Positions 9,280-58,680 of a stretch of 64,000 nt of DNA are shown piece by piece. This stretch comes from a virus. Its lineage: Duplodnaviria > Heunggongvirae > Uroviricota > Caudoviricetes. The translations under genes were made by a program, and so were the position numbers. The notes beneath the pieces are model-generated. The model did no database searches and was not told the DNA's origin. It saw nothing but the letters and a program-made list of their open reading frames with translations. Location: positions 90,811 through 154,810 of the IMG/VR virus record IMGVR_UViG_3300021387_000529; one strand, given 5' to 3'. Within the stretch, counting starts at the first letter, position 1, and each line of letters opens with the position of its first letter.

Positions 9280-10131
9280 CTACCGAAGTAAGGCCAAAAC
9301 ATTCTGTGACTGTGAGTTTGCATTTGCAAGCATTGCAGTTGCAGACTGCTGCAAAATCTGGTTTTTAGTGTATTCAACCATTGATTTTGCCATATCTTCA
9401 TCACGAATGATAGACTCAGAAGATGTAATATTTTCGGCTGCGACATCAATTCCTTTCTTAGCTGTTTCCATTCTGTTTTGTACAGCACCTAAATCAGCAC
9501 GTTGTTTGTTTACAGCTTTCAATGCTTCATCAATTGTTGCAATTGTTGAATTAGCTTCGTCTGCAGACGCAATTGAAATTGTGTTTCCTTCTTCGCCCTG
9601 AATACCAGTTAAACCAAGAGCTGAAGCAGTTGCTGATGCTACATTGATTGAAATATTCTGGTCAACATTTGCACCAATCTGGAAACTCATTGCAATACCA
9701 CCTTCTTTTGCAAAGCGGCCTGTAAGCATGTTCATACCATTGAATTGAGCTGAAGAAGCAATACGGTCAACTTCTGAAACAAGCTGTGATACTTCTACTT
9801 GAATCTGCATTCTGTCTTCATCTGTATACAAACCATTTGCTGACTGAACAGCAAGCTCACGAATACGCTGAAGAATATCACCAGTTTCTGCAAGATAACC
9901 TTCTGTTGTCTGAATAAATGAAACACCATTTTGCACATTTCTTGAAGCCTGATTAAGACCACGAATTTGTGAACGCATCTTTTCCGAAATGGCAAGACCC
10001 GCAGCATCATCACCAGCTTTATTGATTTTCTGTCCTGATGAAAGTTTTTCCATTGATGACTGAAGAGCATTTGTGTTCAAGTTTTCCATTCTTGAAGCGA
10101 AAATGCTGCTCATATTATGATTGATAATCAT
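9280..10131 (-). CDS. flaB: Flagellin, spirochete FlaB-type filament core protein
   Basis: [77 protein letters not shown]; 283 aa. Confidence 0.97.
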
Positions 10132-46172: not shown

Positions 46173-46550
46173 GGGGCATTCCTGGTTTCGACAGCTAGGT
46201 GATGTATCAAATGGTTCATGCACAGTGGTTATGACACCCTAAAAGTCAACGTAAGTAAACGACGCTAACTGTTACGAAGATGTTCGCATGGCTGCTTAGT
46301 CAGACTATGTGAATGTTGTTGGAGCAAAAAGACCCCAACCGTCAACTATCACAGGTGTTGGTAGTAAGATAGATTGGCGACACAACCACCATCTTGGAAA
46401 TCGTAGATGCGGAGCGAGAGCATGTAACGATAACGACAAAACTTGGGCAGAAACCGGTAGCTATCCCGAATCGAAAACTAGCTTAAGCATGTATAGAAGA
46501 CTATTTGTGAAAGTCTAGTATGGACATCGGTTCAATTCCGATATGCTCCA
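46173..46550 (+). ncRNA. ssrA: tmRNA, tag (A)DANCYEDVRMAA
   Basis: 5' GGGGCAT pairs with 3' ATGCTCC-A including G3:U70; GGTTTCGAC; T-arm ATCGGTTCAATTCCGAT; tag ORF 46261-46299 after the TAAAC resume motif. Confidence 0.93.
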
Positions 46551-46559
46551 CTCTAAGAT

Positions 46560-47820: not shown

Positions 47821-47954
47821 AAAAACCAAAAGCAGTTGCAAAGAGTTACTTCGCAAATCGGTAATGCATTTCACTGTTAATGAAAAATTGGCTGGTTCAA
47901 CTCCAGCAGTAAAAGCCTTAAATGGTTACCTCTTTGTTCTATTCTTTGGTTTTT
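47821..47954 (+). ncRNA. Y-RNA-like handle RNA 2 (tRNA-Asn(GTT)-like cargo)
   Basis: AAAAACCAAA/TTTGGTTTTT, AGCAG, GCAAAGAG/CTCTTTGT, TTACTTC. Confidence 0.7.
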
Positions 47955-49221: not shown

Positions 49222-49306
49222 GCTACAGTCGCATAGCGGTTGATTGCGCCGGATTTGTAATCCGGAGGTGTAAAAGCCCACGGGGGTTCGAATCCCTCCT
49301 GTAGCT
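49222..49306 (+). tRNA. tRNA-Thr(TGT) with unusual long variable arm
   Basis: Cloverleaf; variable region AGGTGTAAAAGCCCAC. Confidence 0.85.
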
Positions 49307-49835: not shown

Positions 49836-49874
49836 TTGAATATTTTTGAATTTCTTCATATATTATAATCGTAA
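49836..49874 (+). promoter_or_regulatory. Repeated sigma70-type phage promoter driving a non-coding region
   Basis: TTGAAT-N17-TATATT...CGTAA. Confidence 0.8.
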
Positions 49875-49876
49875 AT

Positions 49877-50410
49877 CAGCTGCTGATAACGATAAGCTGC
49901 TCGGTTAAATAAGTGAGGGAAAATATGACGTAGGTACGGTGAGTTATTCAACGCAAATAAGTCGTAACGGTGAGATGCTGAAAAGCTCACATCGGTAACA
50001 AAGAGACCATGATGAAATGGTTGGCCGGATTGGTTCACAATAAGGAAGTGTGGTTCACTTCACGAAAATGAGACCGAATCAATTAAAAGTTCTTCACTCT
50101 AAGCTTGAGCCGAAAGGTAGAAATAGCTACGAGAAAGGTTTTTGAAGAACTTCCAGCTGGTAGTAACAGCTGACTGTAAAGACAGAATTACGAACCATGT
50201 AGAAAATGTTGGATCCGTGAAGCTCACAAAGCTGGAGTAACGGCAAGGTTCAAGTCCTTGTTCTACATTGAGATGGGTTCTATACAGTGTCCCACCTGAA
50301 ATGACAAAAGACTGGAGTAACCCCTAGCTATGGGAAGGTTAAACTGGACCTGCAAATAGCAAAAAGGCATACGGGTAATTCCTTTCCCACTGGGTTCCTT
50401 ATACCTACAA
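49877..50410 (+). ncRNA. Candidate large (~530 nt) structured ncRNA with embedded tRNA-like module
   Basis: Own promoter, no ORF, long-range stems, T-arm/acceptor module at 50197-50268. Confidence 0.55.
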
Positions 50411-50417
50411 TTTTTTT

Positions 50418-50502
50418 GGGTTTGTCCGCTAATTGGCAAAGCCTGCAGTTAAAGCCTACAATGGAGAGCTGCAGAATGTGAGTTCGAGTCTCATCAAATC
50501 CA
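50418..50502 (+). ncRNA. tRNA-like RNA with ~20-nt anticodon loop
   Basis: Acceptor GGGTTTG/CAAATCC, D loop, T arm, CTGCAG stem with enlarged loop. Confidence 0.65.
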
Positions 50503-50700
50503 CTATTACAAAGTTCTGAGAGGCATCTTAGAAAATACTTTGTGAGAAACGATTCTTCATAAAAAGGTGAGATAACAGCCAGTAGGTGAATAATAATCAC
50601 CATCTCGTTGAGCGCCTGGCATACGAAACCGAAGAGTAAGGACGAAGGCCAAGACCTGAAACGGAGAACGAATAGACCCGAGGGTACGGGGTCTCTAAAG

Positions 50701-50900
50701 CGATGAGCTACCGAGTGTAAATGCGTAAAAAGAGAGTAGAGCTTGTAACTCGAAATCTGGGATATGGGAAAGTCCTCGCTGGAAGAAACAAACTGAAGCG
50801 GAAGTTGCTAGCCAAAAGTAAGTTTGCAGAAATCGGGAATACTAGGGTCCACCACGGTGGAAACATGGTTATGCTGAAGGTTCGACTCCTTCTCCATCGA
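50701..50900 (+). ncRNA. tRNA-like RNA with large internal insertion (tentative)
   Basis: T arm GAAGGTTCGACTCCTTC; CGATG/CATCG acceptor-like closure. Confidence 0.4.
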
Positions 50901-51021
50901 CTTCTGGGTGTTGATACTTGTGAGCTCGCGGGGTTCCTTTCACAAGTGTAGCCTGCCCCGCAAATATGAAGGACTGGGACTATTCGCGATTGTTCTGGTC
51001 TGGGGGAAACGCGTTCCCCAC

Positions 51022-51181
51022 TGCAGTGTAGTGTAAACGGTGCACAGGAGCTGCTAGTAAGTGACAATAGGGCCTGACAATAGTCTACGACCTGCTTTGA
51101 GCAGATGACGGGACGACGATAGGGCCTGACGATAACCGAACCACAGCTCCAGGAGCGAGGTTCAAATCCTTGTTACTGCAA
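51022..51181 (+). ncRNA. tRNA scaffold with ~90-nt insert in the anticodon loop carrying a duplicated motif
   Basis: TGCAGTG/TACTGCA, D arm, GGAGCTG/CAGCTCC, T arm. Confidence 0.7.
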
Positions 51182-51184
51182 TAA

Positions 51185-51364
51185 AAAAGCTACAAAGCAG
51201 AATGAGACAGTTACTTCAAAATCATGCTTTGGGTGCCGTGTGTTGTAGGTTCGAGTCCTACCAGCTCTCTATAAAGCCTATTAAGGTGTGAGAGATGTAG
51301 CTCAATGGTAGAGCAACGTAAAAAATTTCGAAACTATACTGTTTCGCTTATTCTTGTAGCTTTT
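51185..51364 (+). ncRNA. YrlA-like Y RNA (handle RNA 4, permuted T-acceptor-D module)
   Basis: Handle motif plus T arm GTAGGTTCGAGTCCTAC upstream of D arm GCTCAATGGTAGAGC. Confidence 0.8.
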
Positions 51365-52878: not shown

Positions 52879-52950
52879 TGGACTATAGTTTAGCTGGAAG
52901 AATGCTGGCCCTTAGTGCTGGAGGCGTAAGTTCGGATCTTACTAGTCCAT
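52879..52950 (+). tRNA. Atypical tRNA with TTA anticodon (pseudo-tRNA or ochre suppressor)
   Basis: TGGACTA/TAGTCCA; loop CCTTAGT; T loop TTCGGAT. Confidence 0.55.
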
Positions 52951-53001
52951 CTATATGGAGGAAATGCTTATGACTTATCATTAGGATAGGAGATTATCCA
53001 A

Positions 53002-53338: not shown

Positions 53339-53468
53339 AAAAAGCTTTATCAACGTTGGTTCGATTCCAACCGACTTCTCATCCGTGAGGGTACATGTAT
53401 GGCTTGCAGAAATTGAATGCAGGTAGAGGAGCCGTAGTTTAGTATGGCGAGAACCAGTAGAGTTTTTT
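53339..53468 (+). ncRNA. Second permuted tRNA mimic (YrlA-like topology, no handle motif)
   Basis: 12-bp closing stem; T arm GTTGGTTCGATTCCAAC precedes acceptor stem and D arm. Confidence 0.6.
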
Positions 53469-53572: not shown

Positions 53573-54190
53573 ATGGAAAGAATAAGGTATATTTATGAGA
53601 TTAAAAATTTGGTTAATGGAAAAACTTACATTGGCCAGCATACTTTGAGGGAAGGACGCACTTTTGAAACTGATGTTTATTATGGTTCTGGAGTTCTTAT
53701 AAATAGAGCTCAAAGAAAATACGGTTTAGAAAACTTTGAAAAAACGATTGTTATTTCAGGATTTTTTACTAAAGAGCAAATAAACCGTTTTGAAAGGTGC
53801 ATGATTAGGATTGAACGATTCTTAGGAAAAGCAGAATATAATATTGCTGACGGTGGTGAAGGTTGGAGTGAAGGCATGAGAGAAGCTCATAAAGCATCCA
53901 TGACACCAGAACACAATCAGAAAATATCAGAAGCCAATAAAGAGCGTTTAGCAAAAATGTCACCTGAAGAGCGTTCAAAAAAATGTTTTGGCGGTAAGCA
54001 TAATAGTTTTCTTGGACGTCATCATACAGATGAGTATAAAAAATACATGTCTGAACGAATGAAAGGAAATCTTATTGGTTCTAAGAACGGCTCTTTTGGA
54101 AAGAGATGGTGGACAAATGGAAAAGAAAATATAAAAGCTGAAGTTTGTCCTGAAGGTTTTAGGCCTGGAAGGACTTGTCGAACTAAATAA
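53573..54190 (+). CDS. GIY-YIG homing endonuclease with NUMOD3-like tail
   Basis: YIYEIKNLVNGKTYIGQH, YYGSG, YNIADGG, GRHHTDE; start moved to ATG 53573. Confidence 0.9.
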   Translation: MERIRYIYEIKNLVNGKTYIGQHTLREGRTFETDVYYGSGVLINRAQRKYGLENFEKTIVISGFFTKEQINRFERCMIRIERFLGKAEYNIADGGEGWSEGMREAHKASMTPEHNQKISEANKERLAKMSPEERSKKCFGGKHNSFLGRHHTDEYKKYMSERMKGNLIGSKNGSFGKRWWTNGKENIKAEVCPEGFRPGRTCRTK

Positions 54191-54986: not shown

Positions 54987-56648
54987 ATGTCAAGAATCTC
55001 AAAAGCTGCAAAAGCAGTTCGTGAGTCAGAGGTTTTGCGCTCTGACGAAATCGTTAAAAACTTCATGGGTGGCGACTCTTACAAGCTCGACCCACTTTCT
55101 ACACTTCGCGTCATCGCTGCATCTTCAATTTTTGGTGAAGCATCTTATTACAGAGACAACGTAAAAGACTCCAAAGTTGAGACAATAGACCTTGGTGCTC
55201 GTTTTGGCACAGACAGTGATGAACTCAACAAATGGCTCAAGTCTTTTAATGGCCAGTCAACTACAACTGTATTCACAAAAGCGATTGATGCTGCTTTGGA
55301 CTATGACTTCGAAGGAACTTTGAAGCTCGCAGTAGAACTTCGTAAGAACTACAATATGCGCCTCAATCCTCAGGTTATCATGGTTCGTGCATCAACAAAT
55401 GCAAAGCGTGCTGCTTTCACTGAGAAAAATCCAGGAAAATTCTTGGAGTATGAGTCACAGGTAATGTCACGCGCTGATGAGCCAATCACTCAGCTTGCCT
55501 ATTACATCGCAACTAACAAAGGCAAGAAAAAGATGCCAACAATCTTGAAGAAAGCGGTTGCTAAAAAGCTCAGCTCTCTTGATGCATTTGCAGTTAACAA
55601 ATATAAGAATGCTGAAATCGGTATGATTAACGCAGTTCGTTTGTCACACGCAAATTCTGCAGTTCTTGATGAGTTGATGAAAACTGGTTCAGTTAAAGTC
55701 GAGGAAAATTCTAAGACTTGGGAACAGTTGAAGTCTGAAGGAAAAACTTGGAAGGAAATCCTTTCAACAATCAAACTTGGACATATGGCACTTTTGCGCA
55801 ACCTTCGTAACATCTTCACAGAGATTGACGACACAGAACTTTGTAAAGAGGTTCTCGACCAGTTGAAGAAAGGCGTTGTTAAAGGCAAGCAGTTCCCATT
55901 CCGCTATTACAGCGCTTACAAGATGATTGAGCAGGCTGACAAGATGCATCACAGACCAATGGTTCTTGATGCTCTTGAAGAGTGTATCGACATCTCTATT
56001 GCAAATATGCCACACTTGAAAGGCAAAACAATGTGTTTGTCTGACAATTCAGGTTCTGCTTGGGGCACTGTTACAACTGAGTATGGTTCTGTACGTATTG
56101 CTGAGATTGACAACTTGTCATCAGTTATTACAGCTATGGCCTCAGATGAGGGATATGTCGGTAAGTTTGGTGACAAATTGATTGTAAAACCAGCATCAAA
56201 GAGAAATGGCGCACTTGCACAGACAAAAGAGCTTACACACAATAAATGTGATGATGTTGGTGGTGGAACTGAGGGTGGTATCTGGGAGTTCTTCAAGAAT
56301 GCTATCGACAACAAAGAGAAGTATGATAACATCATAATCTACAGTGATATGCAGGCTGGAACTGGTGGACTTTATGGTACAGATAAGCACATCTCAGAAT
56401 ATCGTAAACGTGGATATGACATCGGCTCACATGTAAATGTGTACAAACTTATCCAGGACTACCGTAAGAAAGTCAACCGTAAATGCAATGTAATGTGCGT
56501 ACAAACAGCAGGTTATGACAATATGGTTGTTCCACAGATGTCATATCGTACAGCACTTTGTACTGGTTGGACTGGAAAAGAAGCATCTTTCTTGGACGCT
56601 TATGCAAAAGAGTGGGATGCTGTTGAAAATAAGAACAACAAGCAGTAA
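54987..56648 (+). CDS. rsr: Ro60 / TROVE-domain RNA-binding protein with vWA domain
   Basis: ~553 aa; NFMGG.SY, LR..YNMRLNP, TWEQLKS, MALLRNLRN, QFPFRYYSAY, MIDAS DNSGS, IYSDMQ; start ATG 54987 after GGAGG. Confidence 0.92.
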   Translation: MSRISKAAKAVRESEVLRSDEIVKNFMGGDSYKLDPLSTLRVIAASSIFGEASYYRDNVKDSKVETIDLGARFGTDSDELNKWLKSFNGQSTTTVFTKAIDAALDYDFEGTLKLAVELRKNYNMRLNPQVIMVRASTNAKRAAFTEKNPGKFLEYESQVMSRADEPITQLAYYIATNKGKKKMPTILKKAVAKKLSSLDAFAVNKYKNAEIGMINAVRLSHANSAVLDELMKTGSVKVEENSKTWEQLKSEGKTWKEILSTIKLGHMALLRNLRNIFTEIDDTELCKEVLDQLKKGVVKGKQFPFRYYSAYKMIEQADKMHHRPMVLDALEECIDISIANMPHLKGKTMCLSDNSGSAWGTVTTEYGSVRIAEIDNLSSVITAMASDEGYVGKFGDKLIVKPASKRNGALAQTKELTHNKCDDVGGGTEGGIWEFFKNAIDNKEKYDNIIIYSDMQAGTGGLYGTDKHISEYRKRGYDIGSHVNVYKLIQDYRKKVNRKCNVMCVQTAGYDNMVVPQMSYRTALCTGWTGKEASFLDAYAKEWDAVENKNNKQ

Positions 56649-57845: not shown

Positions 57846-57860
57846 TGTTAATATATAATA

Positions 57861-58635
57861 ATAAAAAGAGTGATGGTTGTGCCAAGTGCTCAATCATTAA
57901 GAGGTCGATTTTTTCGATACTCTTTAGAGAATGGCCAGGGAGTCCTAACAGATGCTGGACGGCTTAATCATCTTGCTGAACGGTGGCAAGGCATTCTCTT
58001 AACGTTTTAGTTATTATCGTAAAATAACTTGGCGGTCGGGAGTGCTTCTGGCACTCGACTATTCGGCTTAGAGAATTAAAACCTAAGCAATTGAACAAGG
58101 AAAAGTTCTAAAAATCCGCGGATAACACAAGTTGGCGTGATATTCTTGTGGAACGGCCTATTGCATATTAGTTTCCGGTGGAAATCCGGCAGCGAGCAAG
58201 TATGAAGGCATAGGGGCAACGAGATAATGAGAGTTCATTATCCAATCGAATTTAAGATTCGGATAAAGCTAAGGGTCTGCAGCTCTAGAAACCCAAAGCA
58301 TGAAAGCCCAACAACGGTTAGAGTCGGGCAACATTCCATTGACAGTACCCGCCGTAGTGTTATAAAAACCCACTAGGACGGAGGCATGTTGATAACGAAC
58401 AGATAAGATGGAACTCAACGACTCGGATAGTTTTACCAATAAGCTGCTTGTCTCCGAACACTAAGGGTAATATGATGTTGCGCTAGTCCCTCACGGTGGT
58501 GGACAGAAAAACTACGGAAACTTACATGTGGGCGATGAAGCCCACCTTCATTAAAAGGAACCTGGTTCGGTAATCTCAGTATCCATCTGAAAGCCTGTGT
58601 CGCGTAATGCTAGTCAGGAAAGTGCCACTTTTTAT
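57861..58635 (+). ncRNA. Candidate giant (~775 nt) ornate ncRNA (GOLLD/ROOL size class)
   Basis: No ORF, raised GC, more than ten hairpins, next to a tRNA array. Confidence 0.55.
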
Positions 58636-58680
58636 TTGTGGCCACCGAACTTGCTTTTATTTTTCAGACTAATTTTAATT

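What the first reader, a model, noticed from the sequence alone, without database searches (positions are those of the whole stretch)
50418..51181. Natural tRNA scaffolds displaying inserts in place of the anticodon
Seen: 51022-51181 has intact acceptor, D and T arms, but its anticodon stem (GGAGCTG/CAGCTCC) encloses about 90 nt containing GACRATAGGGCCTGACRATA twice (51063, 51115). 50418-50502 has a ~20-nt anticodon loop. 50701-50900 is a weaker case with a larger insert. The first two inserts are too short for group I introns. Inference: tRNA-stabilised aptamer, sponge or guide RNAs (like engineered tRNA scaffolds), or protein-spliced introns needing an RNA ligase.
Basis: partly seen in the sequence, partly recalled or inferred. 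Interest (0 to 1): 0.75.

Follow-up and report, generated by a model that had tools for sequence, protein, structure and literature searches.

The report
Phage tRNA shells carrying twin loop-E
A giant gut phage keeps, among its tRNA genes, tRNA-shaped RNAs that cannot read codons; one carries a conserved rod made of two copies of the 5S ribosomal RNA 'loop E' motif, and the same rod occurs in many other phages with or without the tRNA shell, so the shell looks like a natural carrier for a binding module of unknown target.

Summary
51022-51181 is a tRNA frame whose anticodon arm is a long rod. The 'repeated 20-mer' is the two strands of one hairpin: two symmetric 7x7 loops of bacterial 5S-rRNA loop-E type, six base pairs apart. 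I found 17 distinct copies in uncultured phages, 9 inside this tRNA frame and 8 as bare hairpins, mostly among tRNA genes. Helices covary, loops stay fixed, and the central A/G pair is kept in 34 of 34 loops. 50418-50502 is a separate conserved family: full tRNA elbow, alanine mark G3-U70 in all 7 members, and a conserved 18-nt loop in place of an anticodon. 50701-50900 is unresolved. Intron, guide and pseudogene readings are not supported. Best reading: stable non-decoding RNAs cut out by tRNA-processing enzymes, with the rod acting as a two-fold symmetric docking or decoy site for a host factor. The ligand is unknown (bL25 disfavoured, not excluded), and expression is untested.

The parts
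51022..51181 (+). Element E: tRNA-like frame (acceptor, D arm, T arm) with a 90-nt rod in place of the anticodon loop
   Evidence: homologs
51047..51053 (+). 5' strand of the 7-bp stem at the anticodon-stem position (pairs with 51144-51150); 5 of 7 pairs change on both sides among homologs
51054..51060 (+). 5' strand of a bulged-G (sarcin-ricin-type, AGUA with GAA at 51137-51143) internal loop; only partly kept in distant members
   Evidence: motif assignment from own knowledge
51063..51082 (+). 5' half of the twin loop-E module: heptamer, 6-nt helix strand, heptamer
51083..51114 (+). Apical hairpin of the rod; length 6-38 nt among homologs, so not the conserved part
51115..51134 (+). 3' half of the twin loop-E module; pairs back on 51063-51082
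50418..50502 (+). Element B: tRNA-like RNA with alanine acceptor identity (G1-C72, G2-C71, G3-U70, A73) and no usable anticodon
50449..50468 (+). Conserved loop of element B (U-G closing pair, 5x3 purine-rich loop, two C-G pairs, 6-nt cap)
50701..50900 (+). Element C: T arm plus imperfect acceptor around about 165 nt; unresolved
50198..50268 (+).

Best explanation
These are stable, non-decoding phage RNAs made as part of the tRNA-cluster transcript. SHOWN: element E is a tRNA frame holding a rod whose conserved core is two symmetric 7x7 loops of bacterial 5S loop-E sequence type around a 6-bp helix. The same core occurs in other phages as a bare hairpin, in several cases only 5-40 nt from a tRNA gene. 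Element B is a separate family with alanine identity. INFERRED: RNase P and 3'-trimming enzymes (plus the phage's own CCA-adding-type enzyme) release and stabilise the RNA through its own tRNA frame, or through the neighbouring tRNAs when there is no frame. The two loops fold as loop E (rigid, closed by non-canonical pairs, A-rich shallow groove), and their fixed, near two-fold arrangement forms one binding platform. PROPOSED: that platform binds and ties up a host RNA-binding factor, most simply a two-fold symmetric protein, during infection. Element B is probably charged with alanine and acts as a charged-tRNA decoy or handle whose loop binds a partner.
For: Structure E: 97.8% of cells paired, 11 pairs changed on both sides, 1/500 shuffles. 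Seventeen distinct modules, 9 framed and 8 frameless. All six central-helix positions show three to six pair types. The helix and the tRNA context were not in the search pattern, yet 8 of 10 distinct hits in tRNA-bearing loci pair at 5-6 of 6 positions, while among hits without tRNAs only L173 does. The centre of each loop is one A plus one G in 34/34 loops, flipped in the window's lineage, although the patterns allowed either purine on at least one side. Real bacterial 5S rRNAs carry the same loops: GACAAUA with GAAGAUA equals the single loop of L097, and GACGAUA with GAAAAUA equals the inner loop of L022. In L174 the module fills the gap between two tRNAs, 5 and 7 nt away. Acceptor stems of E differ completely between lineages but stay paired: shape, not charging identity, is kept. 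B: 100% paired, 13 double changes, 0/500; G3-U70 in 7/7 B types and 10/10 tRNA-Ala but only 3 of 268 other tRNA calls. Phage encodes a CCA-adding-type enzyme.
Against: No ligand identified, and no protein other than homing-endonuclease-like ORFs recurs beside the module in unrelated phages. The heptamers and the 6-nt spacing were built into the collection patterns, so their constancy is partly ascertained; other spacings were tested only in fetched loci (none found). Six framed sequences in the covariation count fall into two lineages, so the shuffle test overstates independence. Two tRNA-cluster hits (L158, L168) have a poorly paired central helix. The 3D fold is inferred, not modelled.
Confidence: 0.6

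Rival explanations
1. The rod is a 5S rRNA mimic that sponges ribosomal protein bL25 (Ctc), two copies per RNA, to alter ribosome assembly or stress signalling.
For: Loop E is the bL25 site on 5S rRNA (PMC4408793). The loops match real 5S loop-E sequences. The phage has no bL25 gene of its own.
Against: All five bacteria found with this C-containing loop-E variant in their 5S rRNA gave no bL25 match, three of them on single 2.6-2.9 Mb contigs, so this looks like the variant used where bL25 is absent. The host's own 5S loop E and bL25 could not be examined.
Confidence: 0.15
2. The loops are RNA-RNA docking surfaces: the rod packs on a ribosomal helix or on copies of itself or other phage RNAs, with no protein needed.
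For: In the ribosome, loop E contacts 23S helix 38 through a symmetric A-patch (PMC2831300), a contact independent of bL25. The adenines are invariant. Other single loop-E hairpins occur in the same clusters.
Against: No partner helix identified; a bare 50-nt hairpin suffices in some phages.
Confidence: 0.13
3. The inserts are protein-spliced introns and the mature products are tRNAs.
For: The phage encodes an RNA-ligase-family protein. Unexplained tRNA introns are reported in Lak phages (PMC6784885). In B a 13-nt cut would leave a 7-nt loop with U33.
Against: In E, positions 32-33 are UG or CC and no cut restores U33. The module exists outside tRNAs. In B the would-be anticodon is AAA or AAG on an alanine-marked body. 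No bulge-helix-bulge or group I core, no RtcB match in the genome, and no insert-less allele in any locus searched.
Confidence: 0.05
4. The 20-mer is a guide or antisense sequence (bridge-RNA- or TIGR-like dual-loop guide).
For: Two internal loops in one hairpin next to tRNAs resemble stem-loop guide units noted elsewhere in this scan.
Against: Loops are constant across unrelated phages and vary only as loop E does; the variable bases are paired. No further match in the phage genome. No cognate nuclease gene recurs beside it. Host genome not available for a target search.
Confidence: 0.03
5. Decayed tRNA pseudogenes with a local duplication.
For: D loop of E has lost G18-G19 in one allele; element C shows no folding signal.
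Against: Compensatory changes in every arm of E and B and conserved loops across lineages about 70% identical. Remains possible for C only.
Confidence: 0.02

Closest known systems
Engineered tRNA scaffolds (Ponchon and Dardel; PMC3753655)
   Same: Acceptor, D and T arms kept, anticodon stem-loop replaced by a hairpin cargo, for processing and protection.
   Different: Natural; the cargo is a conserved twin loop-E module that also occurs unframed.
Bacterial 5S rRNA loop E (RF00001; bL25 site, PMC4408793)
   Same: Symmetric 7x7 loop with the same letters as real 5S loops.
   Different: Two loops in tandem 6 bp apart; none of the rest of 5S rRNA; no RF00001 match.
YrlA / bacterial and phage Y RNAs (RF02553; PMC4201824)
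   Same: tRNA mimic in a phage that encodes Ro60/TROVE; functional stem at the anticodon-arm position.
   Different: E and B are not circularly permuted and lack the repeated Ro-type handle; a complete phage with the module gave no match to this TROVE protein.
tRNA-like domain of tmRNA (RF00023)
   Same: Element B has the same alanine identity set and no anticodon.
   Different: B keeps a D stem and a full anticodon-length arm, has no reading frame, and the phage has a separate full tmRNA at 46173-46553.
T4 RNA C and RNA D
   Same: Small RNAs of unknown role from a phage tRNA region (PMC3014915).
   Different: No sequence match found in cultured phages; structures not compared.
allo-tRNAs (Mukai et al., PMC5389517)
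   Same: Irregular tRNAs, some with G3-U70, some possibly non-coding.
   Different: allo-tRNAs keep a 7-nt anticodon loop and have 8/4 or 9/3 branches; B is 7/5 without a decoding loop.
'Enigmatic' tRNA introns of Lak megaphages (PMC6784885)
   Same: Conserved inserts in phage tRNA genes.
   Different: There, alleles with and without the insert exist; here none was found and the module is portable.

Membership tests
Decoding tRNA (RF00005) | Acceptor stem, D arm and T arm | tested here: met
   E and B; C only partly
Decoding tRNA (RF00005) | 7-nt anticodon loop with U33 | tested here: not met
   E 90-nt insert, B 18-20-nt loop in all homologs
Bacterial loop E motif | Symmetric 7x7 loop R-A-N-R-R-U-A between helices, with central G/A pair | tested here: met
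   34/34 loops; identical to natural 5S loops
Bacterial loop E motif | Non-canonical pairing and Mg2+-dependent closed fold | not testable with these tools
   Needs probing, NMR or a structure
Bacterial loop E motif | Binds bL25 | tested here: inconclusive
   Only indirect: variant found in five genomes without a bL25 match
5S rRNA (RF00001) | Three-way junction, loops A-D, family score | tested here: not met
   No match at E up to 5
YrlA Y RNA (RF02553) | Permuted order T arm, closed acceptor, D arm | tested here: not met
   E and B have normal order; the weak YrlA match lies next door at 51217-51349
YrlA Y RNA (RF02553) | Encoded near Ro60 | tested here: met
   TROVE gene 54987-56648; not general for the module
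tmRNA | Alanine identity G3-U70, A73 | tested here: met
   B: G3-U70 7/7, A73 6/7; not met by E
tmRNA | mRNA-like domain, stemless D loop | tested here: not met
   B is 81-86 nt with a D stem
Group I intron in tRNA | Catalytic core and sufficient length | tested here: not met
   No Rfam intron match; inserts 13-90 nt; C not excluded by length alone
Protein-spliced tRNA intron | Excision restores a conserved anticodon loop; insert-less allele or BHB motif | tested here: not met
Bridge RNA / stem-loop TIGR guide | Variable loops with targets and a linked nuclease | tested here: not met

The most novel reading that the evidence does not exclude
Many unrelated phages make a portable twin 5S-loop-E RNA, delivered either inside a tRNA shell or cut out from between tRNAs, that mimics a ribosomal surface to trap a host ribosome-associated or ribosome-sensing defence factor: a new class of phage RNA decoy.
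Probability: 0.25. Interest if true: 0.85.

Novelty: new variant of a known kind. Interest (0 to 1): 0.58.

Why it matters
Phage tRNA clusters hold many unannotated RNAs whose jobs are unknown. Here one cargo is small (about 50 nt), recognisable as a textbook ribosomal motif doubled, and shared by phages with otherwise different neighbourhoods. Its presence both with and without a tRNA shell is direct comparative evidence that phages use the tRNA fold as a carrier, as engineers do. The module can be synthesised and used as bait, so the question 'what do these RNAs bind?' becomes directly testable. The alanine-marked element adds a well-supported family to the anticodon-less tRNA mimics.

Tried and rejected
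Rfam at gathering and E-value thresholds: only tRNA, tmRNA and a weak YrlA match; nothing on the module. Cultured-phage BLAST: nothing beyond T-arm words. GTDB scan with a narrow module pattern: no hit. The one 'bacterial' hit for B lies on a 306-kb contig in a Fimenecus bin that shares the phage flagellin and gene set, so it is probably a mis-binned phage. Half-site scan gave mostly chance hits, and 13-nt tandem repeats gave false positives. No phage bL25, RtcB or T4-type Rnl1 match (the last had no positive control). CsrA-site reading of the B loop rejected: the ANGGA register is not kept. Kink-turn readings of B and of the apical loop of E rejected by register. No Treponema genome could be reached to read the host 5S loop E or bL25. 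The Leontis and Westhof 1998 paper was not held, so loop-E pair geometry rests on own knowledge. Literature searches found no description of the module; the 10,006 candidate viral RNAs of PMC10690425 could not be compared by sequence.

Full report
Setting. The window lies in a complete 300,878-bp phage genome with terminal repeats. The finding sits in a tRNA cluster (46-57 kb) with a tmRNA, about 24 tRNA calls and a Ro60/TROVE gene. The phage carries a flagellin gene at 9283-10131. Many 250-400-kb contigs carry close relatives, and one relative also carries FlaA, the spirochaete sheath protein. I therefore infer a spirochaete (Treponema-like) host; this is not shown directly. The genome encodes a CCA-adding-type nucleotidyltransferase and an RNA-ligase-family protein. 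No match was found for bL25 or RtcB.

Observation check. Element E (51022-51181) has the arms, the 7-bp stem and the 90-nt insert as described. The 20-mer occurs twice, far above chance, and nowhere else in the genome. Folding shows that the two copies pair with each other: the six central bases form a helix and the four heptamers form two symmetric 7x7 internal loops (insert z = -3.8). Element B (50418-50502) is a cloverleaf with an 18-20-nt loop. Element C (50701-50900) has a good T arm and a 6/7 acceptor but no folding signal (z = +0.53) and no distant relative. I leave C unresolved.

Element E is conserved and modular. Pattern scans found framed homologs in IMG/VR and metagenomes. Among six framed sequences, 97.8% of cells pair and 11 of 31 pairs change on both sides; these sequences form two lineages, so the shuffle figure is optimistic. 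The acceptor stem is replaced wholesale yet stays paired, and the D stem is constant. A covariance model added a framed single-loop version (L097) and frameless versions. In all, 17 distinct twin-loop modules were collected: nine in the tRNA frame (window, L002, L001, L078, L082, L083, L157, L169, L175) and eight as bare hairpins (L022, L043, L092, L093, L159, L166, L174, L173), all but L173 in tRNA clusters. In L174 the module lies 5 nt from one tRNA and 7 nt from the next; in L166 it starts 5 nt after a tRNA. The apical part varies from 6 to 38 nt. The heptamers and the spacing were part of my patterns, so their constancy is partly built in. Three things were not: pairing of the six central bases (three to six pair types per position), tRNA context (8 of 10 distinct hits in tRNA-bearing loci pair at 5-6 of 6 positions; among hits without tRNAs only L173 does), and the centre of each loop, which is always one A and one G (34/34), with the inner loop flipped in the window's lineage.

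The loops are of 5S loop-E type. Bacterial loop E is a symmetric, highly structured loop of non-canonical pairs and is the bL25 site (PMC4408793); it also packs on 23S helix 38 through an A-patch (PMC2831300). From own knowledge its pattern is sheared G-A, reverse-Hoogsteen A-U, a variable pair, a central G-A, and the mirror image. To test the match on data I searched 401 bacterial genomes at the loop-E position of 5S rRNA. Most hits were chance, but true multi-copy 5S genes appeared in five genomes. One has GACGAUA opposite GAAAAUA, the inner loop of L022. Another has GACAAUA opposite GAAGAUA, the loop of L097. So the phage loops are natural loop-E sequences. None of the five genomes gave a bL25 match, while 8 of 14 controls did. 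This weakens the obvious idea of a bL25 sponge but does not exclude it, since the host could not be checked. In 15 of 17 modules the two loops are arranged head to head, giving a near two-fold site, which is why I favour a symmetric ligand (inference).

Element B is a second family. Homologs occur in six further sequence types and score 71-104 bits against at most 41 for ordinary tRNAs. All stems pair in all six aligned sequences, with 13 double changes. G1-C72, G2-C71 and G3-U70 never change while the rest of the acceptor covaries; A73 is present in 6 of 7. As a control, G3-U70 is in 10/10 tRNA-Ala and in 3 of 268 other tRNA calls of these phages (a fourth was a B member). G3-U70 is the main alanyl-tRNA synthetase mark (PMC5389517). 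The loop sequence is nearly constant, lacks U33 in the canonical register, and its would-be anticodon is AAA or AAG. I read B as a probably alanine-charged RNA that does not decode. Charging is untested.

Mechanism. Shown: architecture, covariation, portability of the module, loop-E sequence identity, alanine mark. Inferred: release from the tRNA-cluster transcript by RNase P and 3' trimming, through the RNA's own frame or through flanking tRNAs; loop-E fold; stability. Proposed: the rod binds and ties up a host factor (0.6 for the whole reading). Rivals are bL25 sponge (0.15), RNA-RNA docking (0.13), intron (0.05), guide (0.03) and pseudogene (0.02). No protein other than homing-endonuclease-like ORFs recurs beside the module in unrelated phages, which points to a host or RNA partner.

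Comparison and novelty. It works like an engineered tRNA scaffold (PMC3753655) and belongs with natural tRNA mimics such as YrlA (PMC4201824), the tmRNA tRNA-like domain and T4 RNA C/D, but fails membership of each named family (see table). Earlier unchecked notes of this scan describe anticodon-less leucine-type frames with variable inserts and alanine-marked mimics in other phages, so the general class is not new to the scan. No note, Rfam family or paper that I could find describes the twin loop-E module. Verdict: real, selected, new variant of a known kind; ligand and expression unknown; interest 0.58.

Noticed in passing
window 9283-10131 (-): Intact spirochaete-type flagellin gene; shared by many 250-400-kb phage-like contigs, one with FlaA nearby.
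   Followed up: partly
window 51185-51349 and 53340-53460: Permuted YrlA-like tRNA domains (T arm before D arm); a handle ending GTTACTTC recurs at 47845, 48393, 51210, 54382, 54915, near the TROVE gene.
   Followed up: partly
window 50198-50268: Fourth tRNA-like element: acceptor plus T arm around a 39-nt non-tRNA middle. A short motif ending CTGGAGTA recurs at about 50232, 50310 and 52643; the middle copy is deleted in a close relative.
   Followed up: partly
window 49222-49306: tRNA with anticodon UGU (Thr) and a long variable arm, nearly identical in distant relatives L092, L159, L161, L162, L172.
   Followed up: partly
window 52879-52951: tRNA-like gene with anticodon UUA (ochre) and a degenerate T loop; TAA is the main stop codon of the genome, so probably not a working suppressor.
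   Followed up: no
window 57850-58650: About 800 nt without ORFs, structured-looking, partly conserved in L119, L124, L125, no Rfam match: candidate large non-coding RNA.
   Followed up: no
window 49850-50200: Non-coding stretch after a promoter-like site, partly conserved in L001 (71%) and L124/L125.
   Followed up: no
window 50915-50945: Possible H-type pseudoknot right after element C (two crossing 6-7-bp stems read by eye); no Rfam match.
   Followed up: no
L121:3270 (+), L121:14917 (-), L087:11908 (-): Single loop-E hairpins of the E. coli-like G-rich type in tRNA clusters of related phages.
   Followed up: no
L093 (JAZNWZ010000130.1): A 306-kb contig binned as Candidatus Fimenecus looks like a jumbo phage of this family.
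   Followed up: partly
window 53595-54190: GIY-YIG homing-endonuclease-like ORF between tRNA-Glu and tRNA-Trp, absent at that place in close relative L002.
   Followed up: no
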